Positions 6,030-51,791 are shown, counted from the first letter of the stretch. The stretch is DNA of 64,000 nucleotides from a virus (IMGVR_UViG_3300032223_000428:1-64000), one strand, 5' to 3'. Translations and numbers: made by a program. Notes: generated by a model not told the origin, from the sequence alone.

Positions 6030-8381
6030 TTAAGCACCAACTTCTGTGAAGTTAATACCAGAACGAGCAGCAACGAAATTAAGAGTGATAAAGTTGATAG
6101 AACGATTTGGTTTAACGAAGATATCAGCAACAAACTGATTAGAGTCGATAACCTCACCAGTATTATTAGATTCATCGCATTTAACACGGAAATCTGTAAT
6201 ACCACGACGACCCTGAACATCACGTAGGAATGGTTCAATCAAATTCTTAAACTGAGCACGAGTAAATCCATCGTTGAATTCGAACAATTGATACTTAGCA
6301 GCAGTAGCGATAGCCTTTTCCATAACGATGAATAGACGACGCACGTTGATGCGATCAAACGCAGATGGTTTGCTCAACAATGTTTTATCACCGTATAGAA
6401 CTGTACCTTGTCCTGGGAATGTAACAACTGGGTTAACACCAGATTTGTACAATGTATCACGATCTGTTTTAGTTGGGTTGATTGCCAACTTAACAACACT
6501 CTTAATTTGACCACGATTTAGACCACCTGGAGAGAACCATGGATCATTAGTGTAATCAGTACGAGCGCATAGACCAGCGATATCACCATTTAATGGGATC
6601 CAACGATACTTGTCGTTGTAACGATCATATTGATACTTGTAACCAGAATCAAGAACTGCGTATGAAGAACTTGGTAGTGCGTTACGATATGCAATAATAG
6701 CAGTAGTAGCATCAGAGCCATTACCAGTAATAACTGCACCAGTGCTTGTATTTTGTGGTGATGCGAACACTACGCAGTCAAGACGAGTTTCTGCCACGTT
6801 TCCGATAACGTATGTAGTTGTAGCAGCATCTGCTTTACCCATCAATACTAATGAGATGTCGTATGTAGCATCATCAGCGAATAGTGCATATGCTGATTGG
6901 ATCTGACCTGCTGTTGGAGCACTTGCACTAATACCATCAACACCACCTGAAAGAGCAAGAATCGATGCAGATGATAATGTTGCAAATGTAGTACCTTGAG
7001 CAGCATTACCCCAGTTAGTTCCTGCTGTTGTATGATCCATCCAGTAAATATATTTGGAATCACCATTAATTACATCTTTATAGTAATTATTAGTTCCATC
7101 TGATTTCTTTGCATCAGATGCTTTAGAAACGAATGCATACTTTTCTAAAACAGTACCAGCAGTTCCAGTCCATGCGCCTGTAGAGTCAACTACAACTACG
7201 TGTAATTCATCTAAAGATCCACCCAAACCAGTAGCATATGGGGATGTAGATGGCGCAGCATCAAAGTTAGCTTTGTATGTCCATGCTGCAAAAGATGCAG
7301 AGTCAGCCATAGAAACTGTTAATGAATTACCGAAAGCACCTGGAAAACGTGCAGCCCATTCTCCAACAACGGCTTCACCATTGATATAAGAAGAACTGTA
7401 AACATCATTGTTATTAATCTTTAAACCACCAACAGAGATAACAGCTGTGCCTTGAGCAGCAGCAGAAATATATGTTAGTGTGGCAGAACCGCTAGCAACT
7501 GCGCCAGATGTATGTGTTGGACCAGTAGAACCAGTTGTACCAGCAGCAGTAACTTGATACAATCTTCCACTAAAGTAAACATATGCGTTAAGAGATACAG
7601 CTGTAGTTGCTGTCCATTGTGTTCCTTGTGAAGAACCAGCAAATGCTACAGTTACTGTAGGAGCAACAGTATATCCAGATCCAGGATTAGTAATAGTAAT
7701 ACCAGTTACTGTAGAAGTAGATATTGTAATTGTACCAGCCGATGCGTTAGTTCCTGGACCGCCAAAACTAATTGTTGGAGCAGATGTATAACCAGAACCA
7801 CCACTAGTAATAGTAATGGAAGTAACCGCACCACCGCTCACTGAAGCAGTACCAGTGGCACGTACACCACCTGATACTTGTGGGTCAGAGAAAGTAATTG
7901 TTGGAGCAGATGTATAACCAGAACCACCATTACCAACTGCTGCTGCAGTAATAGATCCACCAGACATAACTGCTGTACCAGTAGCAGTAGCACCACCAAC
8001 AATCCCTGGAGCACTAAAAGTAACTGTTGGAACTAAAGTACTATCGTATAAAGTACCACCTGCTGTCATAGTAACAGAAGTAACAGTACCAGTTTGAGTT
8101 GCAACAGCATTTCTTGCTAATGTAGAATCAGCACGAACAACCATTAAACTATTAGTATATGACAGGAAGTTTGCTGCAGTGAAAAAAGATGTTGCATTAA
8201 GATCAGATGGTTTACCGAAAGTACGAACCAATTCGTTTTCAGAACTAATCATTGTAGGAGCCATTACTGGACCCCATGGGAACGCACCAGCAAACGCACC
8301 AGTAGAACTAGATACTGCTGGTACGATGGATGTGTAATCTTTTTCTACGACTGCAACGCCTGGAGATAATTGGAAAGGCAT
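6030..8381 (-). CDS. 18: Tail sheath protein gp18 with inserted Gly/Thr-rich repeats and a CBM-like module
   Basis: [12 protein letters not shown]-terminus; [52 protein letters not shown]-terminus. Confidence 0.97.
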
Positions 8382-27471: not shown

Positions 27472-28512
27472 TTAATCGTTAAGAATATTTTGATAGTTTT
27501 TAAGAAGAAATAACCACTGTTGATTCGTAAACTGTAACACTGATGTTCCTTTAGATTTGTTTTTGGAGTAGTGTTCCTCTCCGAACAAATCTCTAAGAGC
27601 CTCTCTCATCTGCCATCTATGAGTACTAGAATCACCACGAACTTTAATAAAAGGTTCATTAGTAGTCATGGACCAAAGTTGAAAATCATCTGTAGCGAAA
27701 AATGGAATTATTCTCTCTGCCTTTTCATTATGCATCATTGTTTTATGATCGTATAAACCAGTATACCAGTTTAAATTAAATAGACAATACCATCTTAAAT
27801 CATAGATCGTTTCGATTTTCCTATGAGATGCTTTAATCATAGGATCGAAAAACTCTAACAATTCTGGATTAATATGTTTCTCATAGGATTCATAAATCGT
27901 ATCTTTATTACCTAATTTGTAGTGAAACGCCATAGATCCATCTGTATCGAACATGTCATCAGTTGGACCAAATAAATGATTGGCACACATTCCACTAACG
28001 AAGATACAATCTATTGCATTAAAAGAATGCACATTAGGTGGAGGAACCTCTATTCTATATTTAAATTCATCTTTAAGTCTTCTATCAAATAAGTCACCAG
28101 ATTCTATTAAAGAATTAAATGTACCCCAGACTCTAACTTGATCTGGATCATTTGAATAATATTTTAGAAGAAATAAAATAAAAGTGCTATCAAGTCCTCC
28201 AGACCAAAGAACATGAATAACTTTGTTTTGATTTAATAACTCTTTGGCTCTTTCTTCACAAACTTCCATAAAAGTTTTATTAAATGGTTTTATGGCAGGA
28301 AGATGATTAGATTTATCAATGTTTAAATAATGCGGTAAAATACCAGATCTATCGTAAACCATATTACTAGAATTTAATCCTAGTTTATTATAAGTTTCCA
28401 ATAATGAATCATCAAAATCTTCAGATAAAAATGGTACCAATACATTACGATGTGTTTTTATTAAAGATGGAACCTCTTTATAATTATAATATAAAATGTC
28501 TTTTTTAAGCAT
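27472..28512 (-). CDS. Asparagine-synthetase-like N-type ATP pyrophosphatase (no glutaminase domain)
   Basis: PP-loop VLWSGGLDST; FVSGMCANHLFG (cf. lsGeGaDElfG); IIPFF..DDFQ.W; late K.K motif. Confidence 0.7.
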   Translation of the reverse strand: MLKKDILYYNYKEVPSLIKTHRNVLVPFLSEDFDDSLLETYNKLGLNSSNMVYDRSGILPHYLNIDKSNHLPAIKPFNKTFMEVCEERAKELLNQNKVIHVLWSGGLDSTFILFLLKYYSNDPDQVRVWGTFNSLIESGDLFDRRLKDEFKYRIEVPPPNVHSFNAIDCIFVSGMCANHLFGPTDDMFDTDGSMAFHYKLGNKDTIYESYEKHINPELLEFFDPMIKASHRKIETIYDLRWYCLFNLNWYTGLYDHKTMMHNEKAERIIPFFATDDFQLWSMTTNEPFIKVRGDSSTHRWQMREALRDLFGEEHYSKNKSKGTSVLQFTNQQWLFLLKNYQNILND

Positions 28513-28522
28513 AGAATCAAAC

Positions 28523-28546
28523 TAAAAGTGGGGTTAAAACCCCACT
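28523..28546 (-). terminator. Hairpin / probable intrinsic terminator after the DctP-like gene
   Basis: Minus strand AGTGGGGT-TTTA-ACCCCACT followed by TTTAGTTT. Confidence 0.55.
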
Positions 28547-28564
28547 ATAATATATTTTTTATAA

Positions 28565-29497
28565 TTAAGATTTAAGTTTATCAATAAGTCCTTCAGAAAA
28601 TACATCATTGTATTTTCCATAAACAGAAGATGTCGCCTGTTTAATTTTGTCTTTTTCTTCTTGTGTTAATTCAACTATTTCAATTCCCTCAGTTTGACAT
28701 GCAGTTTTAATAGCTTCAAGATTTGGCATAGAAACGAATGCAGCATTAGTAGAAGCAGTTAATAATGCTTCTTTAGTTTCATCATCTAATTCATCAAAGA
28801 ACATTTTATTAATTACAATGCAACCTAGCGATAGACTATGTTCAGTATCACTAACATATTTAAAAGATTTACTCTTTATTAAAGGTAGTAAATTAAAATA
28901 ATCTATTTCTGCAGAATCAATAATATTAAATTTTGCGGAAGAAACAATATTCTGATATTCGATATTATGGACTGGAGTAGATTCAATAGACTTAAACGTC
29001 TCATTAGAAACAGAGTTATTTCCTGTTTTAATTTTTTTATCTTTAAATGATGTTAATGTATCGCATTTAACTTTAGAAGCTATTACATTAGCTCCATTAG
29101 AAAACGTGAATTTTAATGCTTTGATACCAACTTTATTTTCTACACCAACCAATAGGTCAGATCCAGCTTCTCCATTTAATACAGTATAAGCATCTGAAAT
29201 GCTGTCGAAAATAAATGGTAATTGCAATGCATCAAGATCTTTATTGATATCTGCCAAGACTTCAGTTGGCAAAATACCCATAGTAATATCACCCTTACCA
29301 ATTAGGTGTAGGATATTACGTGGATTGCTGGATGAGTCTGGTGCATATTTCTCAACATATTCAGAAGAAGACATTACTTCAAAACTGAGTTTATCACTAC
29401 ACTTTTGGTCTACTTCTTTAACGAAAGAATCTGTAACATTAAAAGATACATCGAATGGATCCACAGAAACAACCCATTTTACTTTTTTAATTTCCAT
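28565..29497 (-). CDS. TRAP transporter solute-binding protein (DctP-like), no signal peptide
   Basis: L..GDITMG, LDALQLPFIFDS, L.GEAG..LL, D.K.KKIK, H.L....IVINK.FFDELD.ETK.AL..A, GIEIVEL..EE. Confidence 0.8.
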   Translation of the reverse strand: MEIKKVKWVVSVDPFDVSFNVTDSFVKEVDQKCSDKLSFEVMSSSEYVEKYAPDSSSNPRNILHLIGKGDITMGILPTEVLADINKDLDALQLPFIFDSISDAYTVLNGEAGSDLLVGVENKVGIKALKFTFSNGANVIASKVKCDTLTSFKDKKIKTGNNSVSNETFKSIESTPVHNIEYQNIVSSAKFNIIDSAEIDYFNLLPLIKSKSFKYVSDTEHSLSLGCIVINKMFFDELDDETKEALLTASTNAAFVSMPNLEAIKTACQTEGIEIVELTQEEKDKIKQATSSVYGKYNDVFSEGLIDKLKS

Positions 29498-29789
29498 TTT
29501 TTATTTCTCCTAATTTACTAGTATCGAACGACCAACTGCTTGTTTGTTGTTCTATTGTTCTTTGAGCGATCATTATCTTACTATTTATAAAGTATTTTAG
29601 TATGTCCATTGTAAACTGTTCTCTATTTTCAAAACATTCCAATGGAATCAAAGTATCTCTAGACTCATAATTTTTGTTATTAGAGTCGTAATAAAATACA
29701 TCTTTTATACAAAAATATTCAGTAGTGTGTTTTAATATTCTAGGATACTGTCTTATTTCAACCATGTATCCTTCAAAAAATGAACTCAT
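29487..29789 (-). CDS. Hypothetical protein
   Basis: 100-aa ORF overlapping both neighbours (ATGA coupling with the radical SAM gene). Confidence 0.6.
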   Translation of the reverse strand: MSSFFEGYMVEIRQYPRILKHTTEYFCIKDVFYYDSNNKNYESRDTLIPLECFENREQFTMDILKYFINSKIMIAQRTIEQQTSSWSFDTSKLGEIKNGN

Positions 29790-31177
29790 GCAACCACCGA
29801 AATTGGTATAATTTTTCTTGGTTTTCTAACATTAGATGGTTTACCATTAGTCCACCAGAATATATCTTTCCTATCTTCCCTTAGTGGACCTTCGATATAT
29901 TCTGGAATGCACCCAGTAATTTCTTCTATTGCTATACTAAACATAACGATATTATCACTAAATGCATTATCGCATGATGCATCCCATAGTGGTCCAGAAA
30001 GAAACATACATGCACCTTTACATATATGAATAACAGGACAGTTAGGGCACTCTTTTCTATCACTCCAATGAGTGGCAGTATTTAATTGAGAAGAATTTAA
30101 ATCAGAGATATGTCCTATCTTATGAGACATTCCTGCAGGATTATTAGAAACTGCGCTAACATTCTGACATGTCAAAACATTACCATTTAAGTCTAATGCA
30201 ATAGAATCTGATTTATCCATACCACACTTTTGTGGTAAAGATTCTATTCTAGAACCATTCTTAATAGAATTTAAAAATGTATTAAATTTACTGCCAATTA
30301 CAGAAAATCTGCTGGCACCACCACGTCTTAATTCATCTAGAGAAAGATTTCTAAATTTATTATCCTCTTCCCCATCCAATAATGAATTGGCAAGACCACC
30401 TTCATCATAAGCATCAACGAACGCACCTTCACCAATAGTTAAAAAATCACAGTATTCTTTTCCAATATTATCAGTAATAAATTTGATAAAAAATTCTTGG
30501 ATTTTTGTTCTGCTTATATTTTTAGAGTTAATCATAGAATTAAAACTAAAACGACGTTTAGGTGCCAATCTTTTATAAAGATCTAAAATGGCTTCTTTTG
30601 ATACTGGATCGTCAAAAGGATCTGGTCCACGAACTGGTTGTCCTGGACCATCATGAGAAACTGCAATACCAAACCCTAAAGATTCTAGCCAGTCATTCTT
30701 TTCTTTATCCAATAAACTACCATTAGTGATAATACCCATATTGCAATTTGGATATTTTTGTTTAATCGCTTCAGCTAAAGGTTTTAGTGTTTTCCAATAA
30801 ACAAATGGTTCACCACCCCAAAATTCAAAGGTTGTATTTTTTCCTAATAAATCATCTCCTCCCTCAAACCATGAGGACATATTTTCTACGAAAGGGAGAA
30901 CATCATCGGGATTGGTTTGATCGGCATGAGGAACGAAACGCTGGTTGCAATAATCACACTCGAAATTGCATGAAAGACCTAGCTGTATTTTTACAGTCTT
31001 TAGGTCTTTCTTCCCATGTTCTATTTTTGCTGGAGCCAGAACATCTGGTTGTGTCATTACATTATCATAAATTGGAGTTCCATCTTCCCATGTTAATGTA
31101 CTAACACTACTATCATAAATTATCACTTTATGTTTTTGTTCTTTAACATCCCATGATTTAATTTCAAATTTTGCCAT
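29786..31177 (-). CDS. Radical SAM enzyme with SPASM domain
   Basis: CNFECDYC (CxxxCxxC), FWGGEP, ITNGSLL, SHDGP; SPASM cysteines KCG...LTCQ...CPNCPVIHICKGAC...SCD. Confidence 0.95.
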   Translation of the reverse strand: MAKFEIKSWDVKEQKHKVIIYDSSVSTLTWEDGTPIYDNVMTQPDVLAPAKIEHGKKDLKTVKIQLGLSCNFECDYCNQRFVPHADQTNPDDVLPFVENMSSWFEGGDDLLGKNTTFEFWGGEPFVYWKTLKPLAEAIKQKYPNCNMGIITNGSLLDKEKNDWLESLGFGIAVSHDGPGQPVRGPDPFDDPVSKEAILDLYKRLAPKRRFSFNSMINSKNISRTKIQEFFIKFITDNIGKEYCDFLTIGEGAFVDAYDEGGLANSLLDGEEDNKFRNLSLDELRRGGASRFSVIGSKFNTFLNSIKNGSRIESLPQKCGMDKSDSIALDLNGNVLTCQNVSAVSNNPAGMSHKIGHISDLNSSQLNTATHWSDRKECPNCPVIHICKGACMFLSGPLWDASCDNAFSDNIVMFSIAIEEITGCIPEYIEGPLREDRKDIFWWTNGKPSNVRKPRKIIPISVVA

Positions 31178-31222: not shown

Positions 31223-31229
31223 TATTTAG
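31223..31229 (-). promoter_or_regulatory. Candidate late promoter (CTAAATA) upstream of the radical SAM gene
   Basis: tatttag overlapping the stop of the upstream ORF, 46 nt before the rSAM ATG; same motif as before gp18, gp25, gp2 and gp4. Confidence 0.4.
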
Positions 31230-32146
31230 ATCGTTTTAGTGAATGTGGTTTGAGCAAGCCAAAACTTAAATCCAATTTTAACTGAAACTGTATCTCCAGA
31301 ATCTAATCCTGTAGTTATAACTTTAAAAGAACCAGTTCCATTAGTTAATGGAATTTTTGTTTTTGGCAAAAATCCAGTATTTGTTTGTAAATATAAAAAA
31401 TCAATTCTTTCATCGGTTGTTACATTCACAGTAATAACATCACCAGAAATACTCGAGGTCGTGTTTATCTGAGCCATTAATTCTTCTGGAGGAGATATAA
31501 ATTCTTTTAATAAAGATAAACTAGTATCAACTTCTATAGTATGATCAGCGAAGCCAGTTCTATCTACAATATTATCACCACCTGGTCTAACAGTTTTTGG
31601 TGGATAATAATCTCTTGTGTCAGATATCGCCATTGGTTTTTGAATAACCAAAATAATGTCATCAGAAGTAGGATTATCACTTGTGACAAAGAAATTAAAT
31701 AAAGATTTACCACCAAAAATATTATTCACACCATTCCCATATGATAAAGAATATGCATTATAAATTTTATCAGATGGAATTGTGGTAGAATTAGTAGGAA
31801 GTAAAGATTCTATAAAATCCTGATCAATTCCCCATGCTGTTTGTGCTGGAGATTTTAGTAAAGGAGTGATATCAATTAAAAAATCATAAACTTTTAAATT
31901 TTCTGTAGTGTTAGTTAATACAATTTTAAATAAATTATCTTGTACGTTCTGTATTTCCCATTTAAAATGTATTGGAGTAGTCTCCCATAAAGGGTGATCT
32001 CTTAAGTCATCTTGTATTTCTTGAGAAAACTCTGATGCGTTATCCCAATCTAAATTTGGATATAATCCATGTTTCCAATTTAAACTAATAGTATTATTAA
32101 CAAAAGAATATTTTCTACTATCTGTTAGTCTTAGTGCGTATTTCAT
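31226..32146 (-). CDS. Hypothetical protein with C-terminal Ig-like beta domain (fibre/rSAM-associated)
   Basis: 306 aa; C-terminal LYLQTNTGFLPKTKIPLTNGTGSFKVITTGLDSGDTVSVKIGFKFW; sandwiched between fibre and rSAM genes. Confidence 0.65.
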   Translation of the reverse strand: MKYALRLTDSRKYSFVNNTISLNWKHGLYPNLDWDNASEFSQEIQDDLRDHPLWETTPIHFKWEIQNVQDNLFKIVLTNTTENLKVYDFLIDITPLLKSPAQTAWGIDQDFIESLLPTNSTTIPSDKIYNAYSLSYGNGVNNIFGGKSLFNFFVTSDNPTSDDIILVIQKPMAISDTRDYYPPKTVRPGGDNIVDRTGFADHTIEVDTSLSLLKEFISPPEELMAQINTTSSISGDVITVNVTTDERIDFLYLQTNTGFLPKTKIPLTNGTGSFKVITTGLDSGDTVSVKIGFKFWLAQTTFTKTI

Positions 32147-32155
32147 GCATATTCC

Positions 32156-33484
32156 TTAACAATTACAATTGCAGTTAATACAATTTAAATAATGGTGATG
32201 TGGGTCAAGACCTGTGCCAGTATCTAAATGTTCTCTTCCATAACAATTATATGAGTGAAAGAAATGAGAATATTGGCCATGATTACCAGATCCAGCACCA
32301 CGCCCCCAGACACTAACGAAGCTGTTTACCTTTGTATTGGCTGCTACTGCCATATCATTTGTGAACTGTGATAGATGTCCTGGTCTACCTTGAATACCAC
32401 CCCATGGTGCATGTGAAGAATGGTGAGTAAAGTCACTACTATGTGCCGCATGAGAATAAGAACTATTGAAGGCATGACTGACATTAGAAACAATAACAGC
32501 ACCAGTGTTACCCTGAACAGATGATACTGGAACAGAAACGATTACGTTACCAGTCGCACCATTAACAGATTGAACTGGCACGTTAACAATAACAGCACCA
32601 GTGTTACCCTGAACAGATGTAACTGGAACAGAAACGATTACGTTACCAGTATTACCCTGAACAGTTAATACGTTTGCATTAATAGTTGGGTTACCACCAG
32701 TACCATCACCATTCTGAACAGTAATACCTGATCCTGCAGCTATAGATCTTACCGTTGCAGTCGCTGCGCCAGTTCTAATGTAAATACCGTTAGACGAAAC
32801 ACTAGAAAGACCAGCAAGGTTATTAGCATATGCTTGGACATCTGTACCAATTGTTAAACCTAGACCAGTACGAGCAGTTGCTTGATCGGCAGACGCTTCC
32901 AATCCACGCATAAATGCAGAAGAAGTATATGTACCAGCTGTTCCTACCCCAGTAAAATATGGAACAGCACCAGCAGCAGAAGATACACTGGCCAGTGCAG
33001 CAAGTTCAGCATCATAAGCCTGAACGTCTGTGCCAATTGCCAAACCCAATGCAGTTCTTGCAGCAGGGGCATTATTAGATCCAGTACCACCAGAGCCAAT
33101 AGGTAGAGCAGTTGTAAGTGTTGTAATAGAACCACTAGTAATTGCTGCTACGCCAGTAAATGTACCAGAAAAATTCGTAGCTGTAATGGTGTTACCAGCG
33201 AAGTTACCAGAACTATCACGAACTACAACAGAACTTTTATTGACACCTGCAGGTAATGCAGAAGATGTATCTAATCCATCTAGAAAGTCAGCGTCTAGAA
33301 GAGAACCTGTACCATCAACGGTAATAAGTTTAGCCAGTACATCTGCAGCAGTATAACTAGCAGCAGTAAGACCTGTTTGAAGAGCTGTATTGAGGGCTGA
33401 GAAGTTATTATCAACTTCAGTATTAGTAAGAGGACTGCCCTTAGTACCTCTTAACGTAATGGTTGCAGCGGATATATTTGCCAT
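32156..33484 (-). CDS. Tail fibre protein with His-rich, Asn-Cys-repeat C-terminus
   Basis: ITLRGTKGSPLTNTEVDNNF N-terminus, LDADFLDG, GGTG...AARTALGL, ~5x VxSVxGxTG repeats, ends PHHHYLNCINCNCNC. Confidence 0.85.
   Translation of the reverse strand: MANISAATITLRGTKGSPLTNTEVDNNFSALNTALQTGLTAASYTAADVLAKLITVDGTGSLLDADFLDGLDTSSALPAGVNKSSVVVRDSSGNFAGNTITATNFSGTFTGVAAITSGSITTLTTALPIGSGGTGSNNAPAARTALGLAIGTDVQAYDAELAALASVSSAAGAVPYFTGVGTAGTYTSSAFMRGLEASADQATARTGLGLTIGTDVQAYANNLAGLSSVSSNGIYIRTGAATATVRSIAAGSGITVQNGDGTGGNPTINANVLTVQGNTGNVIVSVPVTSVQGNTGAVIVNVPVQSVNGATGNVIVSVPVSSVQGNTGAVIVSNVSHAFNSSYSHAAHSSDFTHHSSHAPWGGIQGRPGHLSQFTNDMAVAANTKVNSFVSVWGRGAGSGNHGQYSHFFHSYNCYGREHLDTGTGLDPHHHYLNCINCNCNC
32490..32670. 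repeat. 45-bp coding repeats (VPVxSVQGNTGxVIV), ~4-5 copies
   Basis: Recurrent ttaccctgaacag and ctggaacagaaacgattacgttaccag. Confidence 0.85.
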
Positions 33485-40537: not shown

Positions 40538-40544
40538 TATTTAT
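40538..40544 (-). promoter_or_regulatory. Late promoter (ATAAATA)
   Basis: tatttat 33 nt upstream of the 2258-aa gene. Confidence 0.55.
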
Positions 40545-43141
40545 TAGAATTTAATAACAGTTCTTAATGTTACTGTTTGGTCTGTAGTTGGTGTAAATGC
40601 CTGTTTATTATCTATAAACATAATATGACCAGAATATTTATCAACAGTCGGTGTAGTCACTCCAGCAGCTGTGAAACTATTAGCAACAGAATTTAAAAAT
40701 ACAGATCCAACTGTTGGTACAGCATTATCCAAAGATTGTAATAATACTTGAGTTGATGTTATGGCAACAATTCTAAATCTTCTTCCTGTTGTAGTACCAA
40801 CTGTTATTAGCATATCTTGAGTGAATTGATTTGTATCAATTTGTGCTGTAACAACCCAGCATGCTGATGCCAATGAACTTTTTAGGTTACCATAAGATCC
40901 ATACTGTCTTGGGTTTTTAATAATACCTAACTGACGGAAGTCATTATTTACATCAAATCCTTGATTCTTATCTTTAGATATATTTGTATAGAACATTAAA
41001 GTGCTTGCAAACATACCAGTAATAGGATCTTTACCATGACCACCATATGGAGCCATTACCGCTCTAGCCTTAGCACCATATCCAGTACCAGAGATTGTAA
41101 TATTCGCCCATCTATATCCTAGACCATAGTTATCTACCACTATTTTTTTAAGAACACCACCATCAATTACTGTATGTGCAGAAGCACCTGTTCCATCTCC
41201 ATCAATAGTTACTGTTGGTGCACCACCATATCCATATCCACCAGAGATAATTGGATACGCCATAATACGTCCGTCTGGAGTAAGCAATTCGGTATTTGCT
41301 TGTAACGTATTAATATCTCCTGGACTTAAATCGACTGTTAAAGAAGCCTCTGTCCCAGTAGTTCCACCATCACCATCACCACTAACTGTTAAGTTAGCAT
41401 ACGTATATCCAACTCCACCATCATCAATTTGTACAGAAGTAATTTGTCCATTATTAATAATAGGAATCAATTTTGCCTCTGATTTAACAGAAGAAAAATA
41501 TCCAGTCGCACCTGATCCACCAGAAACTGGAGATATAGAAATGCTAGGTAATGAAGAATAACCAGAGCCGTATTTCAAGATAGCTGTTGCAGTAGCTGGA
41601 GAACCAGCATATGTTAATACTGCAGTTCCATTTGTAACTGCGCCAGAAGTATGTGAAGGATAAATTGAGGAACTACTAGTTCCAGCTGTCGTTACAGTGT
41701 ACAGACGAGTTTGATAATATATCTGCTGTCCTAAAGTATATGCAGTACTAGTGGAAAACTGAGTTCCAAATGTTACTGTCGGTACTGATGTATAGTTCTG
41801 TCCAGCATCTGAAATGTATACTCTTTGAACAGAAGTGCCACTCATTACAACAGCACCAACGAATCCAGATCCGCTTCCACCTGTTACATTAACAGTTGGA
41901 GCAGTTGTATATCCAATACCACCAGAGGACATTGTTATATCATAAAGCATACCATTTAAGGCAATACTAGTCACTACACCAGCAGTTACAACTGGAGTTC
42001 CAGTTACTCTGGTTCCAATATATTTTAAAGCAGCTGTTCCGTTTGCAACAATACCTGATTTATGAGATGGCGCTGGAGCAGATGTAACTCCAGTAACAGT
42101 TGCTTCATATAAGTTATTGTTATATTCTACTTTTTGTCCAAGCAAAATAGAATTACCTGCAACCCAAGTGTTTGCTCCATTGAAAGGTGGAGCAAACAAT
42201 ACAGTGGCACCAGATGTATAACCAGTTCCACCATTATTAATATTAACAGAAGTCAATAGAAGAGGATCAGAAGCACGATATCCGTCACCTGAAACAGAAA
42301 TACTAGCATAAGTATAGTTTTGTCCAGGATTTTCAATAACTATGTTTAAGATCTCACCATCTGAATAGAATTGTGATTTTAAAGAGTTCACAATCGGCAT
42401 GTAAACATCTGTCAAGAATTTATTGCGTAAGGCAATTGGGATACTATACAAATATTTCCACATATATCCGTCAGGCATAATAACTGGATCTACAACAGTA
42501 CCAACTGGTTTATATGTAGAAATTGCATTATTATTGTTGTCAAGACATTTATATACGTTATATTCATCTGTCATAGCATAACAATTGGTGTCTTCTAAAC
42601 GCTGTGCACCTGAATATGCTTTACAAATAACACCAGTAGCATATGCACCTTCGCCCCCACCACCAAGAATGTTTATAGTTGGAGCAGATGTATATCCAAT
42701 TCCTCTAGAAGTAAGTTCTACAGATGTAACAACACCTTCTGTTAAATATGCAACTGCAGCAGCACCTGTGCCACCACCGCCTGTAATTGTCACAGAAGGC
42801 ACGTCTGAGTAACCATATCCACCAGAAATTAAATTTATCCCCTGCACTTCAGTGCTATACTGGTCATCATACATATCATAAATCGTACCAGAAGTCCAAT
42901 CACGTCTAATAATAACGAAAGAGCAATCAGTTGATTTGATTTCTTTCATCGTAATTATTTCATTACGTGTTTGTAATTCATAGTTGTGACTGTCCACAGG
43001 GTAGGGTGGAGATGCTTCGTCTACCCAATTGATGGTTTTACCTAAAAAATAATAGTATCTTCCACTACGATTTTGAAGTTCATCATAGATACCCTCTGCA
43101 ACAGAGTTATGCAATGGCGATTTCAGTAAAGAGGATGTCAT
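40544..43141 (-). CDS. 8: Baseplate wedge protein gp8 with large insertions
   Basis: YYFLGK...W, RRDWTSGTIYDMYDD, YNVYKCLDNN, DGYMWKYLY, GGHGKD, NDFRQLGIIKNP, YSGHIMFIDN. Confidence 0.88.
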   Translation of the reverse strand: MTSSLLKSPLHNSVAEGIYDELQNRSGRYYYFLGKTINWVDEASPPYPVDSHNYELQTRNEIITMKEIKSTDCSFVIIRRDWTSGTIYDMYDDQYSTEVQGINLISGGYGYSDVPSVTITGGGGTGAAAVAYLTEGVVTSVELTSRGIGYTSAPTINILGGGGEGAYATGVICKAYSGAQRLEDTNCYAMTDEYNVYKCLDNNNNAISTYKPVGTVVDPVIMPDGYMWKYLYSIPIALRNKFLTDVYMPIVNSLKSQFYSDGEILNIVIENPGQNYTYASISVSGDGYRASDPLLLTSVNINNGGTGYTSGATVLFAPPFNGANTWVAGNSILLGQKVEYNNNLYEATVTGVTSAPAPSHKSGIVANGTAALKYIGTRVTGTPVVTAGVVTSIALNGMLYDITMSSGGIGYTTAPTVNVTGGSGSGFVGAVVMSGTSVQRVYISDAGQNYTSVPTVTFGTQFSTSTAYTLGQQIYYQTRLYTVTTAGTSSSSIYPSHTSGAVTNGTAVLTYAGSPATATAILKYGSGYSSLPSISISPVSGGSGATGYFSSVKSEAKLIPIINNGQITSVQIDDGGVGYTYANLTVSGDGDGGTTGTEASLTVDLSPGDINTLQANTELLTPDGRIMAYPIISGGYGYGGAPTVTIDGDGTGASAHTVIDGGVLKKIVVDNYGLGYRWANITISGTGYGAKARAVMAPYGGHGKDPITGMFASTLMFYTNISKDKNQGFDVNNDFRQLGIIKNPRQYGSYGNLKSSLASACWVVTAQIDTNQFTQDMLITVGTTTGRRFRIVAITSTQVLLQSLDNAVPTVGSVFLNSVANSFTAAGVTTPTVDKYSGHIMFIDNKQAFTPTTDQTVTLRTVIKF

Positions 43142-48456: not shown

Positions 48457-48756
48457 TTATTCTATGAAAGTCTTTGCAGAACCTTGCGCCACAGTATCAC
48501 CATCAGCAATCCCATCATTAATTCTTGCAGCAAGATTTCCTTCAAAATAGGTTTTAGAAGCTCCAGAAGTTATTTGGCGAAGACTTGTTTGGTGTGTAGT
48601 TCTACCAACTGTATGTGCATCAAATTGATCCCCAACAACACCAATTAAACCCTCAGCAACATAACTTTTCGTGCACTGAACCAACGTGTTTAAACCAGTA
48701 GGAGATCCACCATCGGATCCTGCTGATAATGCACCTTTGTATGTCACTGCTGCCAT
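48457..48756 (-). CDS. PAAR-like spike tip protein (gp5.4-like)
   Basis: 99 aa; VGDQFDAH...H, GASKTYFEGNLAARINDGIADGDTVAQGS; directly after gp5. Confidence 0.8.
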   Translation of the reverse strand: MAAVTYKGALSAGSDGGSPTGLNTLVQCTKSYVAEGLIGVVGDQFDAHTVGRTTHQTSLRQITSGASKTYFEGNLAARINDGIADGDTVAQGSAKTFIE

Positions 48757-51700
48757 TATGCTGGTTTATTCTTTGGTGGTATATCTGTTAGTAGATAGAA
48801 TCCTGAAGGAATTCCTTTACTATCACGTTTGTATGTTGAATCATTCACCATCGTAAATGCCATTTTTCTGTTTCCATTGGGCTTATATCCAGTATGGATC
48901 CATACAGAAGTTGGGTTTCTATATTCAAGAATGATTTGATCGTAGGTTATTAATCTTTCCAGTTTTTGCACTAAATCATAAGTTGATTGATAACGATCTG
49001 GTGATAATAAAGCGATATCGAAACAGTGTCCTTTACAGTGATCAGAAAATGGTGATTCAGTAGGAACAACACCCTTCAAACGATAACCAGAAGAAATCTT
49101 CCACTGTTTATTGTATCCTCCGATACCACCTGGAAGTGCAGCCAAATATGGCTCTAATATGTTTTGTGCAGACATAGCCAGATTACAAACAATTTCCTGA
49201 ACAGTATATAAACGCTCTGGAGTATTTGGACCATCTTTTAACATTTGATCCACTAGTTTATGTTTACCGTTAACTCCACCATCCATACACATACCAAGAG
49301 TAAAATTCTTAGAAAGTGTATAATCATTGGTAAAGTTTTTAGTAGCGTAAATTATCTTACAATCAACTGGAACAGTCGCTCCTGTGCCACCACTTGCTGC
49401 AGGTGCTTCTTCAGTTGCTGATGGGGCAGGGGCATTAGGAATACCCTGTTGAGTCTGTTTATTAGAATTTTGACGACCTTCAGGTGTGTCATAATCTTCT
49501 GGAGTTTCTACTGCAGCTTTTTCTTCGACTTCTCGTTCAGGAGGAATTAAATATGGGATATTTGGATCTAATGGTGAACCAGCATCTGGAGGTGTTAATT
49601 TAACTGCAGTTGGACTTGTTGCACTAACACCAAAGTTACCTTTACTATAATTAACATTAGTTACTCCAGAGGAATTAATATCAATGGTTCCACTTGATCC
49701 GAGTTTCATAGCAGTATCAGCCAACTGATTAATGTTTGCTGCCTGTAGATTAAAATCACCTACAGCTTTAATATTAAAACTACCACCAATCGCAAAGTCT
49801 ACATTATTTGCAACTCCAAGGGAAACATTATTACCAACTCTTACATTTGCATTTTGTGACACTTCGATATTAGCATCAGTTCTACAGAAAATATTTGCAT
49901 TTCCATCAACTGTTAGATTATATTCACCAGCCACATGGATACATCCGTTACGTTCCATAAGGGTAAAATTATCACCAACAATATAATTAACAACTGTACC
50001 ATTGGCATCTATCTCGTAGAAAGTTCCAGCACGATGGTATGTATGGATTCTCTCATGACCTGGACTATCATCAAATTCTTGAAGATGACCAGATTCAGTT
50101 TCAAATACTTTATTGAATGGATACTTTGCACCGAATGCAGTTTTTGGTTGATCCCATGATCCCTCATCATATGCTTTTGGAACTCCAATTTTTATATTGG
50201 CATCTTTTTTCTCAACAATAGTTCCATCAATAATACCACGTGCGAGACGATTTGTATCTGGTTCATTAATGTAATCTTTTAAGGGATACTTATTATTTGG
50301 ATCTCTAAATCCTGTATTGTCACTACCACGTTTAATACTATCTGGAGATGGTCCAGGTGTTGGTGAAGAACCATCTGCTGGTGGTTGTGCAGGTGGTGAA
50401 CCAGCATCTTTTTCTACAGCACCAGTCGCTGCATCACCATAAAAATATTCATAGTATGATAATTTTCTTGCAGCAATGTCTGGAGAATTCACCCCAACTG
50501 CTTTTTTCGCTGCATAAAAATATCCTGGATGATCAGTTGATTTTACACCTGATGGTACACGATCCTTAATATAAAGTGCAGCAATGAGAGCACTGGTATT
50601 TAAATCATTATCCAGAGAATCTGGATTATTAAGAATATCAATCCCCAAACCCATCTTATTTGCTAGATCATTATATCGTTTGTAGTTTCCACGTCCAGTT
50701 AACTGAATAAAACCACGTCCATAATATTTACCACCATCTTCATCAGTTAAATTGCCAAGGAAACCTTTACCACGTTTCGTTGGTCCATAAATGACTTGGA
50801 AAAACTGCTCACGTGTAATACCTTTCTTTGAAGCATCAGAATACTGTTCTGCTTCTGCGTCAGTTAAGAAAGAGAAAATTTGTTTAATTCTAGGTTTAGA
50901 ATAACTAAATGATTCGTTCTGAGGAATCCATGTAGATTCACCTCCAGCAATTCCAAGTAATGCACACTTCTGTTCTTTTGTAGTTAATCCAACTCTATCA
51001 CATGCAGCAATAAGTGCTTTTATACCATCAGAAGATCTACCTGCATTAGGAGAAGATTTTGGTGGTGGAGTTGTTGGAATAGAAGTATTAGTGGAAGTTT
51101 GGGCAACAGGGCTGTTTCCTATTTGAACTGGTGTGCCATCAGAAGTTGTTACAGGTTTTCCACTAGAATCTGTAAGTGTAGAAGAAGCCTTACTAGAATT
51201 TACTGCATCTAAATTAGATGGTGCGTCCTTGAAAGTTATAATGTTTTCACCATAACCATTAACTTCTTGACTAATACTAATTTGAGTAGGACTATCTACA
51301 CTAGTAATAAATGTTCCATCTTTTAAACCAAATCCAATAACACGCATATTGGCTTTTAGATTTGATGTAAGATTAGTTTTACCAGTCTGTTTATCAATAA
51401 ATGTTAATTGTTTTCCAGAAACTGGACCAACAATAGTTCTAAGTTCAATGTCTTTAGTTTTTGTTGCAGAATTTATTTCTACTGCATTGTCATCATCATC
51501 AATAGATGCAGGAATCTGAGGTATTCCACCAACAGTGCCAAGCATAATGGGTTGTTGGTTATGTTCATCTGCGAACATAACAATAACAGTAGTACCTTCC
51601 ACTGGACCAAGTGGAGTGAAACCTATACCATTCATAGCAGCTGAACCAATAGGTTGCACTGGCATTGACCATGGAAGGTCATTAGTTGGGAGTTGTGTTT

Positions 51701-51791
51701 TATCGTGGGTATGTAAACCTACTATTCGAACCTGACAACGTCCAAGTTGTAATGGATCTGCTCTGTTTTCAACTACACCTGTGTATATCAT
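48756..51791 (-). CDS. 5: Baseplate hub/spike gp5 with GH19 glycosidase and C-terminal M15 peptidase
   Basis: OB-fold YTGVVENRADPLQLGRCQVRIVGLH; GH19 YYGRGFIQLTGRGNY; YPFNKVFETESGHLQEFDDSPGHERIH beta-helix; ISSGYR...SDH.KG...DI...WIH. Confidence 0.93.
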   Translation of the reverse strand: MIYTGVVENRADPLQLGRCQVRIVGLHTHDKTQLPTNDLPWSMPVQPIGSAAMNGIGFTPLGPVEGTTVIVMFADEHNQQPIMLGTVGGIPQIPASIDDDDNAVEINSATKTKDIELRTIVGPVSGKQLTFIDKQTGKTNLTSNLKANMRVIGFGLKDGTFITSVDSPTQISISQEVNGYGENIITFKDAPSNLDAVNSSKASSTLTDSSGKPVTTSDGTPVQIGNSPVAQTSTNTSIPTTPPPKSSPNAGRSSDGIKALIAACDRVGLTTKEQKCALLGIAGGESTWIPQNESFSYSKPRIKQIFSFLTDAEAEQYSDASKKGITREQFFQVIYGPTKRGKGFLGNLTDEDGGKYYGRGFIQLTGRGNYKRYNDLANKMGLGIDILNNPDSLDNDLNTSALIAALYIKDRVPSGVKSTDHPGYFYAAKKAVGVNSPDIAARKLSYYEYFYGDAATGAVEKDAGSPPAQPPADGSSPTPGPSPDSIKRGSDNTGFRDPNNKYPLKDYINEPDTNRLARGIIDGTIVEKKDANIKIGVPKAYDEGSWDQPKTAFGAKYPFNKVFETESGHLQEFDDSPGHERIHTYHRAGTFYEIDANGTVVNYIVGDNFTLMERNGCIHVAGEYNLTVDGNANIFCRTDANIEVSQNANVRVGNNVSLGVANNVDFAIGGSFNIKAVGDFNLQAANINQLADTAMKLGSSGTIDINSSGVTNVNYSKGNFGVSATSPTAVKLTPPDAGSPLDPNIPYLIPPEREVEEKAAVETPEDYDTPEGRQNSNKQTQQGIPNAPAPSATEEAPAASGGTGATVPVDCKIIYATKNFTNDYTLSKNFTLGMCMDGGVNGKHKLVDQMLKDGPNTPERLYTVQEIVCNLAMSAQNILEPYLAALPGGIGGYNKQWKISSGYRLKGVVPTESPFSDHCKGHCFDIALLSPDRYQSTYDLVQKLERLITYDQIILEYRNPTSVWIHTGYKPNGNRKMAFTMVNDSTYKRDSKGIPSGFYLLTDIPPKNKPA

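What the first reader, a model, noticed from the sequence alone, without database searches (positions are those of the whole stretch)
32156..32480. Abrupt His/Cys-rich fibre tip: 14 His and 5 Cys, every Cys preceded by Asn
Seen: the first ~335 aa of the 442-aa fibre contain no His and no Cys. The last ~107 aa contain 14 His (SHAFNSSYSHAAHSSDFTHHSSHAPW...SHFFHSY...PHHHY) and 5 Cys, all in Asn-Cys pairs (YNCY, NCINCNCNC-stop). Known: NxxC is the substrate motif of the beta-thioether-forming rSAM NxxcB (NCNC fits it), His-Xaa-Ser and His-Ala-Ala motifs are substrates of cyclophane-forming rSAMs, and His pairs bind metal in the T4 gp37/gp12 trimers. Inference: the tip is an enzyme substrate and/or a dense metal-binding site (Fe/Zn/Cu), possibly mimicking a metallophore to use a metal-uptake receptor.
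Basis: partly seen in the sequence, partly recalled or inferred. Interest (0 to 1): 0.85.

Follow-up and report, generated by a model that had tools for sequence, protein, structure and literature searches.

The report
Phage fibre Asn-Cys tail, radical-SAM partner
A marine T4-like phage ends its tail fibre in repeated asparagine-cysteine pairs, and a radical-SAM enzyme of the peptide cross-linking kind is encoded beside such a tail in almost every relative sampled, so the phage probably modifies its fibre tip chemically, whereas the histidine richness is a local variant of a hypervariable tip.

Summary
The 442-aa fibre (32156..33484, minus strand) has 14 His and 5 Cys, all in residues 337-442, and every Cys follows an Asn.

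The two features behave differently in relatives. The (NC)n C-terminal tail is tied to a radical SAM/SPASM enzyme two genes downstream (29786..31177).
- Of 129 related loci with enough upstream DNA, 117 have a same-strand ORF ending in an (NC)n tail. Ten more carry close variants, and one of these is followed by a Hint domain.
- In the reverse test, 20 of 22 real NCNCNC-stop proteins have the enzyme just downstream. None of 19 chance matches does.
- The conserved unit is Asn-Cys, not NxxC. Asn sits at -1 of 79% of isolated Cys but at -3 of only 8%.

The His-rich part lies in a hypervariable tip. Relatives carry 0-16 His there, with His/Tyr swaps, so it is not the enzyme's conserved target.

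The most likely mechanism is enzyme-installed thioether cross-links in the fibre tip. This is inferred, with CrpC/CrpA, PapB and QhpD as precedents. I found no paper describing it. The scan has met the same enzyme-tail pairing on several other genomes.

The parts
32156..33484 (-). Tail fibre gene, 442 aa
   Evidence: ORF. PHROG tail fibre families. Partial tblastn matches to annotated tail fibres of Caulobacter, Rhizobium and Puniceispirillum phages.
32486..32764 (-). Shaft repeats (about 16-aa units of the V-T-S-V-Q-G-N-T-G-A-V-I-V-S-V-P type), conserved in relatives
   Evidence: Self-matches of the tip DNA. Alignments.
32354..32389 (-). Conserved collar motif (GRPGHLSQFTND) after which the relatives' tips become hypervariable
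   Evidence: Alignments (P76, L79, S80 and N84 of the 150-aa tip are invariant or nearly so).
32192..32476 (-). His-rich part of the hypervariable tip (14 His, residues 337-431). It includes an insertion shared only with the closest relatives.
   Evidence: His counts in the last 110 aa of 88 relatives range from 0 to 16.
32243..32248 (-). Isolated Asn413-Cys414 pair
   Evidence: Isolated Cys in relatives are preceded by Asn in 139 of 177 unique contexts.
32159..32185 (-). C-terminal tail N-C-I-N-C-N-C-N-C followed by a TAA stop. This is the conserved, probable enzyme target.
   Evidence: DNA read. Conservation and linkage to the enzyme.
31226..32146 (-). 306-aa partner protein. It has an N-terminal domain with no matched fold and a C-terminal Ig-like (intimin/invasin type) domain at 31229-31477.
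   Evidence: AlphaFold2 pLDDT 88.5, pTM 0.86. VIA-align Z 9.4 to intimin over residues 225-306. Foldseek found nothing for the rest. The family is present between fibre and enzyme in 102 of 126 loci. The C-terminal domain matches RSP15 gp047 at E 4e-8.
29786..31177 (-). Radical SAM/SPASM enzyme, 463 aa. The CxxxCxxC motif is at 30947-30970 and the seven-Cys SPASM motif at 29972-30226.
   Evidence: PF04055 and TIGR04085 above cut-off. Invariant C70, C74, C77, C318, G332, C337, C377, C380, C386, C390 and C402 in 22 diverse relatives. The family profile matches 8VPO, anSME and CteB over the full length.
29487..29789 (-). 100-aa protein of unknown function. It overlaps the enzyme's stop by 4 nt and is conserved in the marine lineage.
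   Evidence: It is cluster 12 in the layout 0-R-12-13-8. No family hit.
28565..29497 (-). DctP-like solute-binding protein, conserved in the marine lineage of the cassette
   Evidence: PF03480 E 4.8e-27. NF037995. In L021 it lies between the partner protein and the enzyme.
28527..28546 (-). Terminator-like hairpin after the DctP-like gene. It may mark the end of the fibre-to-DctP unit.
   Evidence: This is a consensus match only.
27472..28512 (-). 346-aa protein with a PP-loop-type SGGLDS motif, conserved in the marine lineage. Its membership in the cassette is uncertain.
   Evidence: Motif read in the translation. tblastn shows co-occurrence and it forms cluster 8. No Pfam or PDB match. Only a weak QueC-like PHROG hit.

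Best explanation
The fibre's C-terminal (Asn-Cys)n tail, and probably its isolated Asn-Cys pair, is the target of the radical SAM/SPASM enzyme encoded two genes downstream.

Shown:
- Tail and enzyme are inherited together across marine T4-like phages, freshwater Burkholderiales phages and prophages, an Ackermannviridae phage (RSP15) and siphoviruses (JWF, 2-1). The fibres that carry the tail are otherwise unrelated.
- The tail is always at, or is brought to, the C-terminus.

Inferred:
- The enzyme abstracts a hydrogen atom and joins Cys sulfur to a carbon of a neighbouring residue, mostly Asn or Asp. That would give thioether (ranthionine or sactionine type) cross-links within a chain or between the three chains of the fibre.
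- The cross-links would lock the distal tip and replace oxidation-prone free thiols in an extracellular particle.
- The Ig-like 306-aa protein is probably a structural partner or adaptor of the tip, not an enzyme.
- The 14 His belong to a lineage-specific version of the hypervariable receptor-binding tip. They may bind metal but are not what the enzyme family is conserved for.
For: 1. Enzyme identity. It has CxxxCxxC plus a textbook seven-Cys SPASM motif, invariant in 22 relatives at 30-49% identity. Its nearest solved relatives are peptide or protein-modifying SPASM enzymes (8VPO, anSME, CteB).
2. Forward linkage. All 23 close IMG/VR loci with upstream DNA have an (NC)n-ended ORF. Of 129 wider loci (38-76% identical enzymes, from bacterial genomes and viral contigs), 117 have one, 10 more have close variants and only 2 have none. 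The background is 1 in 5119 other ORFs.
3. Reverse linkage. An NCNCNC-stop DNA pattern gave 22 real ORF ends with at least 3.5 kb downstream, and 20 of them have the enzyme within 3.3 kb. None of 19 chance hits does.
4. The carriers are unrelated: RSP15 gp048 (...NCQCGN-stop), JWF and 2-1 fibres (NCNCDCNCNCSC directly before a Hint self-cleaving domain), 87-aa and 133-aa proteins, and the window-type fibre.
5. Asn precedes 184 of 209 Cys in linked proteins. Asn is at -1 in 79% of isolated Cys against a 9% background. In the last 16 residues, the residue before Cys is N 464, D 60, A 31 times. Asn and Asp are the acceptor residues of the known ranthionine-forming enzymes NxxcB and PapB; PapB is documented in PMC12373016.
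6. Precedent for a protein substrate. CrpC installs ranthionine links in the 28.8-kDa CrpA (PMC13692751).
7. The genes are tightly packed, with gaps of 9, 48, -4 and -11 nt.
Against: - No chemistry has been observed. Homology does not single out a reaction, because the profile is about equally distant from a cyclopropyl-synthase-type enzyme, anSME and CteB, and all NCBIfam equivalog scores are far below cut-off.
- The landmark active-site positions differ from CteB at several sites: Asn/Ser after the CxxxCxxC motif, and Gln-Asn after the auxiliary Cys.
- No RiPP recognition element was detected.
- The residue before Cys can be Ala, Gly or Val, so a side-chain acceptor is not obligatory.
- Three unrelated proteins end in NCNCNC without the enzyme, one of them in a contig rated 100% complete.
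- An alternating CxCxC tail could simply bind metal, as metallothioneins do.
- The AlphaFold2 monomer model of the tip was unusable (pLDDT 48).
Confidence: 0.6

Rival explanations
1. The enzyme does act on the Asn-Cys tail, but the chemistry is not thioether formation. Candidates are oxidation of Cys to formylglycine as in anSME, epimerisation, a C-C link, or a reaction within the Asn-Cys dipeptide itself.
For: - The family profile aligns full-length with anSME as well as with CteB (E 3e-19 against 8.5e-19).
- The best PDB hit belongs to yet another chemistry (8VPO, cited in the cyclopropyl synthase paper PMC10878394).
- The strict adjacency of Asn and Cys matches no known thioether motif.
- 2OG-Fe(II) oxygenases accompany the enzyme in 71 of 126 loci, which hints at more elaborate tailoring.
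Against: - The anSME substrate motif (C/S-x-P/A-x-R) is absent. TIGR03942 scores 39 bits against a cut-off of 349.
- Most characterised SPASM enzymes paired with Cys-rich targets make thioethers (PMC10288494, PMC13692751).
Confidence: 0.2
2. The alternating Cys tail, together with the His cluster in this phage, is a metal or iron-sulfur binding site on the three-fold axis of the fibre. The neighbouring radical SAM enzyme does not modify it covalently.
For: - CxCxC runs are typical of metallothionein-type sites.
- From general knowledge, trimeric phage fibres and spikes bind Fe or Zn through alternating His (T4 gp37, gp12; P2 gpV-type spikes).
- The window's tip has HxH-type spacing at 429-431 and elsewhere.
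- Some NCNCNC-ended proteins lack the enzyme.
Against: - It does not explain why the enzyme accompanies the tail in about 98% of loci, or why Asn rather than any residue precedes Cys.
- His is absent from many tips that keep both tail and enzyme.
Confidence: 0.12
3. One reading: the His-Xaa-Ser and His-Ala-Ala motifs are cyclophane-forming substrates, and/or the tip mimics a metallophore to exploit a metal-uptake receptor.
For: The literal motifs H-A-A and H-S-S occur at residues 345-358. A radical SAM/SPASM enzyme is adjacent.
Against: - That His segment is an insertion shared only with the closest relatives.
- The enzyme family is conserved next to tips with 0-1 His.
- HxsB, YhhB and FxsB models score 24-40 bits against cut-offs of 370-445.
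- There is no evidence of any kind on the receptor.
Confidence: 0.05
4. The hypervariable, Asn-codon-rich fibre C-terminus is the variable region of a diversity-generating retroelement (DGR).
For: DGR targets are often fibre C-termini, and their template repeats are rich in AAY codons.
Against: - No second copy of the tip DNA exists in the window apart from the shaft's internal repeats.
- No ORF of the window annotated was a reverse transcriptase. The remaining ORFs were only scanned for a crude Y/FxDD motif, which is uninformative.
- Asn is conserved rather than varied at these positions.
Confidence: 0.01

Closest known systems
CrpC/CrpA of Methanococcus voltae (Dieter et al. 2026, PMC13692751)
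   Same: A radical SAM enzyme with a seven-Cys SPASM domain is encoded next to a Cys-rich protein rather than a short peptide. The modifications were mapped to the C-terminal region, and a second adjacent protein (CrpB) may act as a helper.
   Different: - CrpC has an RRE; none was detected here.
- The CrpA motifs are of the C-A-G-M and C-A-V-D type, with the acceptor after the Cys.
- The TIGR04463 model scores 30 bits against a cut-off of 525.
- CrpA is a cellular protein of unknown role, whereas the target here is a virion fibre.
PapB/PapA (freyrasin) and the streptococcal NxxcB/NxxcA ranthipeptide systems
   Same: SPASM enzymes join Cys sulfur to the beta-carbon of Asp (PapB) or Asn (NxxcB). 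Here Asn and Asp are by far the commonest partners of Cys. PapB also accepts the C-terminal residue as acceptor (PMC12373016), and the tail here is C-terminal.
   Different: - Spacing differs: C-x3-D or N-x-x-C in those systems, directly adjacent N-C here.
- Those substrates are short leader-bearing peptides.
- NF047865 scores 50 bits against a cut-off of 340.
QhpD/QhpC of quinohaemoprotein amine dehydrogenase
   Same: A radical SAM/SPASM enzyme makes Cys-to-Asp/Glu thioethers inside a protein subunit that stays part of a larger assembly (cited in PMC13692751).
   Different: TIGR03906 scores 43 bits against a cut-off of 453. The substrate has no Asn-Cys repeat and is a periplasmic enzyme subunit.
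T4 gp37 / gp12 and P2 gpV-type metal-binding fibre and spike tips (general knowledge)
   Same: These are trimeric distal tips with alternating His facing the three-fold axis. The window's HHH and other HxH spacings near the C-terminus could do the same.
   Different: There is no sequence similarity to any solved structure. The His positions are swapped for Tyr or absent in relatives. None of those proteins has a Cys tail or a dedicated enzyme.
Self-cleaving C-terminal domains of phage fibres (intramolecular chaperones; Hint domains)
   Same: In JWF, 2-1 and L184 the Cys repeat is followed by a Hint domain whose first Cys abuts the repeat. Self-cleavage would leave the repeat at the new C-terminus.
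   Different: The window's fibre simply stops after the repeat. Cleavage in JWF is inferred, not shown.

Membership tests
Radical SAM / SPASM-domain enzymes | CxxxCxxC motif for the SAM-binding [4Fe-4S] cluster | tested here: met
   C70-x3-C74-x2-C77, invariant in 22 relatives. PF04055 scores 29.6 bits against a cut-off of 29.5.
Radical SAM / SPASM-domain enzymes | Seven-Cys SPASM motif (C-x9-15-G-x4-C ... C-x2-C-x5-C-x3-C ... C) | tested here: met
   C318, G332, C337, C377, C380, C386, C390 and C402 are invariant. TIGR04085 scores 35.2 bits against a cut-off of 27.
RiPP-type maturases | RiPP recognition element (about 90-aa winged helix) in the enzyme or a partner | tested here: inconclusive
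   No Pfam or NCBIfam domain in the conserved 55-aa N-terminal extension. The partner protein's N-terminal domain matched no fold. The enzyme itself was not modelled.
PapB-type ranthipeptide maturases | Score above the NF047865 cut-off | tested here: not met
   50.1 bits against 340.
PapB-type ranthipeptide maturases | Thioether product (loss of 2 Da per link, thiol no longer alkylatable) | not testable with these tools
   Needs mass spectrometry.
NxxcB/NxxcA | Asn three residues before the Cys (N-x-x-C) | tested here: not met
   In 177 unique isolated-Cys contexts Asn is at -3 in 8% (background 9%) and at -1 in 79%. NxxC arises in the tail only as a by-product of the N-C period.
CrpC family (TIGR04463) | Score above the family cut-off | tested here: not met
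   30 bits against 525.
Cyclophane-forming maturases (HxsB, YhhB, FxsB) | Score above the family cut-off, with the aromatic-x-x motif conserved alongside the enzyme | tested here: not met
   TIGR03978 32 against 370, NF041707 40 against 445, TIGR04269 24 against 370. His is absent from many linked fibres.
Anaerobic sulfatase-maturating enzymes | Score above the TIGR03942 cut-off, and the substrate motif C/S-x-P/A-x-R | tested here: not met
   39 bits against 349. No such motif occurs in the tip. The fold-level relation is real (profile E 3e-19).
gp37-type metal-binding fibre tip | Alternating His on the trimer axis that bind Fe or Zn | tested here: inconclusive
   HxH spacings are present, but there is no similarity to solved structures, the positions are not conserved and the monomer model is unusable. 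Metal content is not testable here.
DGR variable region | A template repeat and a reverse transcriptase nearby | tested here: not met

The most novel reading that the evidence does not exclude
The enzyme staples the three chains of the fibre together, or staples the tail to the Ig-like partner protein, through inter-chain thioethers at the Asn-Cys pairs. This would give a covalently locked receptor-binding tip. It would be the first radical-SAM cross-link found in any virus particle, and a use of RiPP-type chemistry to build a structure rather than a natural product.
Probability: 0.25. Interest if true: 0.9.

Novelty: new variant of a known kind. Interest (0 to 1): 0.78.

Why it matters
Post-translational chemistry of phage receptor-binding proteins is almost unexplored. 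This system is a dedicated radical enzyme with a portable two-residue tag. It was found in over 500 IMG/VR stretches, 253 stretches of species-representative bacterial genomes and at least 257 enzyme clusters at 50% identity.

If the link is confirmed, three things follow. Many phages would be finishing their fibres enzymatically. Recombinant fibres made without the enzyme may be immature. And the Asn-Cys tag plus its enzyme could become a tool for site-specific protein cross-linking.

It also gives a simple rule for annotation: a fibre-like ORF that ends in (xC)n predicts the enzyme, and the enzyme predicts such an ORF.

Tried and rejected
- An AlphaFold2 monomer of the last 150 residues with 25 relatives gave pLDDT 48 and was unusable.
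- Foldseek on the partner protein found no match at E <= 0.001. The ESM Atlas gave only sub-threshold leads and an Ig-like C-terminus.
- Catalytic-site proximity profiling (PMC10288494) could only be done by sequence landmarks. It gave N78, T151, S174, Q338 and N339, a pattern matching neither CteB nor the sactisynthase StsB. It is inconclusive without the reference set and a model.
- The T4 late-promoter motif TATAAATA occurs 4 times against 9 expected and is not placed before the fibre or the enzyme. The sigma-70 scan was below the shuffle mean.
- The DGR idea is rejected.
- The PP-loop protein has no Pfam or PDB relative, so I do not call it AsnB-like.
- Eight literature searches, five of them aimed at this question, and the papers read found no description of a fibre-plus-radical-SAM pairing or of the motif (searches; two searches looked up a PDB code and a method). 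The cyanophage paper PMC12801897 mentions a radical SAM 'maturase' only as a putative antibiotic gene.
Distant relatives were reached through the search for related loci with a profile instead.
- The exceptions L089, L101 and L044 were searched in their whole contigs for the enzyme, and none was found.

Full report
**Observation.** The minus-strand ORF 32156..33484 encodes a 442-aa protein. PHROGs places it among tail fibres.
- There are 14 His at positions 337-431.
- There are 5 Cys at 414, 435, 438, 440 and 442, each preceded by Asn.
- Residues 1-336 contain no His and no Cys.
- The protein ends N-C-I-N-C-N-C-N-C followed by TAA.
- If His and Cys were placed at random, this segregation has a chance of about 4e-13.
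- In 19 other proteins of the window, only 4 of 72 Cys follow Asn.

**Surroundings.** The window is the structural module of a T4-like marine myovirus.
- It encodes portal, sheath, baseplate wedge and hub proteins.
- The portal is 54-57% identical to those of Methylophilales phage Melnitz, the pelagimyophages Mosig and HTVC008M, and cyanomyoviruses.

Five genes follow the fibre on the same strand:
- A 306-aa protein, 9 nt after the fibre's stop.
- A 463-aa radical SAM enzyme, after a 48-nt gap.
- A 100-aa protein that overlaps the enzyme's stop by 4 nt.
- A DctP-like binding protein.
- After a hairpin, a protein with a PP-loop motif.

The enzyme has CxxxCxxC and a complete seven-Cys SPASM motif. 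Both are invariant in 22 relatives at 30-49% identity. It passes the Pfam radical SAM and NCBIfam SPASM cut-offs. It is far below the cut-off of every named maturase family.

**Linkage test, from enzyme to tail.**
- The enzyme has homologues at 45-48% identity in Ralstonia phage RSP15 (Ackermannviridae) and in Achromobacter phages JWF and 2-1.
- In all three, a fibre gene lies one to three genes upstream.
- RSP15 gp048 ends ...N-C-Q-C-G-N.
- The JWF and 2-1 fibres carry N-C-N-C-D-C-N-C(-N-C)-S-C directly before a Hint domain.
- Every one of the 23 close IMG/VR loci that has upstream DNA holds a fibre-like ORF ending in (NC)n.
- A profile of diverse relatives fetched 160 further loci. Most of the 80 bacterial-genome loci come from freshwater Burkholderiales genomes and MAGs; the other 80 are viral contigs.
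- Of the 129 loci with at least 3 kb upstream, 117 have a same-strand ORF with (NC)>=2 in its last 14 residues.
- Ten of the other twelve carry variants such as N-C-A-C-N-C-D-C, N-C-Q-C-N-C, or a repeat followed by a Hint domain. Only two have nothing.
- Among 5119 other ORFs of at least 100 aa in the same loci, one has such an end.

**Linkage test, from tail to enzyme.**
- A DNA pattern for N-C-N-C-N-C plus a stop codon found more than 117 stretches in IMG/VR.
- Of the 80 loci returned, 43 are ends of ORFs of at least 80 aa.
- Of the 22 with at least 3.5 kb downstream, 20 have the enzyme within 3.3 kb.
- None of 19 short-ORF chance matches has it.
- The two exceptions are unrelated 184-aa proteins. 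One sits in a contig rated complete that lacks the enzyme.

**What exactly is conserved.**
- In enzyme-linked proteins, 184 of 209 Cys follow Asn.
- For 177 unique contexts of isolated Cys, Asn occupies -1 in 79%, -3 in 8% and +1 in 13%, against a 9% background. Gly is common at -2.
- The unit is therefore Asn-Cys, often G-N-C, and not N-x-x-C.
- Within the last 16 residues, the residue before Cys is N 464, C 75, D 60, A 31, G 21 times.
- The last residue is Cys in 112 of 128 unique proteins.
- Where the repeat is internal, a self-cleaving domain follows it. A free C-terminal position therefore seems to matter, though this is inferred.
- Extreme carriers exist: proteins of 133 and 173 aa with 21 and 19 Cys, nearly all in N-C pairs, lie directly before the enzyme.

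**The His-rich part.** I aligned the last 150 residues of 27 window-type fibres.
- The shaft repeats and a collar motif (G-R-P-G-H-L-S-Q-F-x-N) are conserved.
- A hypervariable stretch of 30-90 residues follows, and then the invariant tail.
- High His content is confined to the window's nearest relatives.
- Equivalent positions read H-H-H-Y, H-H-H-H, Y-H-H-F, Y-Y-Y-H or Y-Y-Y-T.
- The segment with H-A-A-H and H-H-S-S-H is an insertion shared with only two close relatives.
- In 88 fibres of at least 250 aa, the last 110 residues hold 0-16 His. Fourteen hold none.
- At a site where relatives have G-N-C-G-N, the window reads G-N-H-G-Q.

The His cluster is therefore a lineage-specific feature of the receptor-binding tip. 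It is not the conserved partner of the enzyme. From general knowledge of gp37-type tips, metal binding is plausible, but it is untested.

**Other cassette members.**
- The 306-aa family lies between fibre and enzyme in 102 of 126 loci. Its model is confident (pLDDT 88.5).
- Only its C-terminal 80 residues match a known fold, the intimin/invasin Ig-like domain (Z 9.4).
- It has no invariant catalytic-type residues, and the window's copy has no Cys. I read it as a structural partner or adaptor.
- RSP15 gp047 shares the Ig-like domain.
- A different 230-aa family takes this position in JWF-like loci.
- 2OG-Fe(II) oxygenases (PF13759) accompany the enzyme in 71 loci.
- The 100-aa, DctP-like and PP-loop genes are specific to the marine lineage. 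In one relative they lie between the partner protein and the enzyme.
- In freshwater loci, the lysis genes follow the enzyme directly.

**Mechanism.**
- Homology does not fix the reaction. The family profile matches 8VPO (E 2e-24), anSME (3e-19) and CteB (9e-19) over the full length.
- Landmark active-site residues differ from those of CteB.
- The best-supported inference is thioether formation between Cys sulfur and a carbon of Asn or Asp.
- This rests on three precedents: PapB (Asp, and the C-terminal residue; PMC12373016); NxxcB (Asn; named in PMC10288494); and the protein substrates of QhpD and CrpC (PMC13692751).
- It also rests on the argument that free thiols would not persist on an extracellular particle.
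- Whether the links are within a chain, between chains, or to the partner protein is unknown.

**Novelty.** I found no paper describing the pairing or the motif. Earlier notes of this scan report the same enzyme family next to Asn-Cys-tailed fibres on several other genomes. My census is an independent test and agrees with them. One of those notes led me to the CrpC paper, which I read. I class the system as a new variant of a known kind: radical SAM/SPASM maturation applied to a virion fibre through an Asn-Cys tag.

Noticed in passing
L042 (also L049, L060, L080, L083), L040, L204, L206: Small proteins of 133-173 aa with 15-21 Cys, almost all in Asn-Cys pairs, lie 14-230 nt before the enzyme with no partner protein in between. 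They may be free-standing targets or small virion proteins.
   Followed up: partly
L002:4670-6121 (JWF gp028), L003:4706-6148, L184:4184-5329: The Cys repeat is internal and directly followed by a Hint (intein-like) domain beginning C-F-P. Self-cleavage would expose the repeat as the new C-terminus.
   Followed up: partly
L026:1799-2608: Three tandem 87-aa ORFs each start with an F-T-N-D-type fibre motif and end N-C-N-C-N-C. They lie upstream of two partner-protein copies, three 2OG oxygenases and the enzyme.
   Followed up: no
L208:3-533, L213:4157-5020: A tail variant with Tyr/Ser-Cys repeats (Y-C-S-Y-C-S-Y-C...) precedes N-C-N-C-D-C. It occurs next to a 40% identical enzyme in Rhodospirillales MAGs.
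   Followed up: no
L101, L089, L044 (with L041, L082): Three unrelated protein families of about 184-203 aa end in N-C-N-C-N-C, but the enzyme is absent from their contigs. One of these contigs is rated 100% complete.
   Followed up: partly
window 28565-29497 and 27472-28512: A DctP-family solute-binding protein sits in a phage structural module with no transporter genes nearby. The following 346-aa protein has an SGGLDS PP-loop motif but no Pfam, NCBIfam or PDB relative. Both travel with the enzyme in the marine lineage.
   Followed up: partly
window 29786-31177: The enzyme family keeps a conserved 55-aa N-terminal extension (M1, F4 and Y21 nearly invariant) and a conserved C-terminal K-x-I-P-I motif. 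The function of both is unknown.
   Followed up: no
window 48756-51791: The baseplate hub (gp5-like, phrog_430) carries an endolysin/chitinase-like domain at residues 257-446 (phrog_181, phrog_14712).
   Followed up: no
window 6030-8381 and 40544-43141: The 783-aa tail sheath and an 865-aa baseplate wedge protein share an inserted 70-aa module. The same module matches 'head closure Hc2' and giant virion structural protein PHROGs.
   Followed up: no
L001:6078-6944 (RSP15 gp046): A 277-aa His-rich protein lies between the partner protein and the enzyme in RSP15. It has no Pfam or NCBIfam hit. By position it corresponds to the 2OG oxygenases of other loci.
   Followed up: partly
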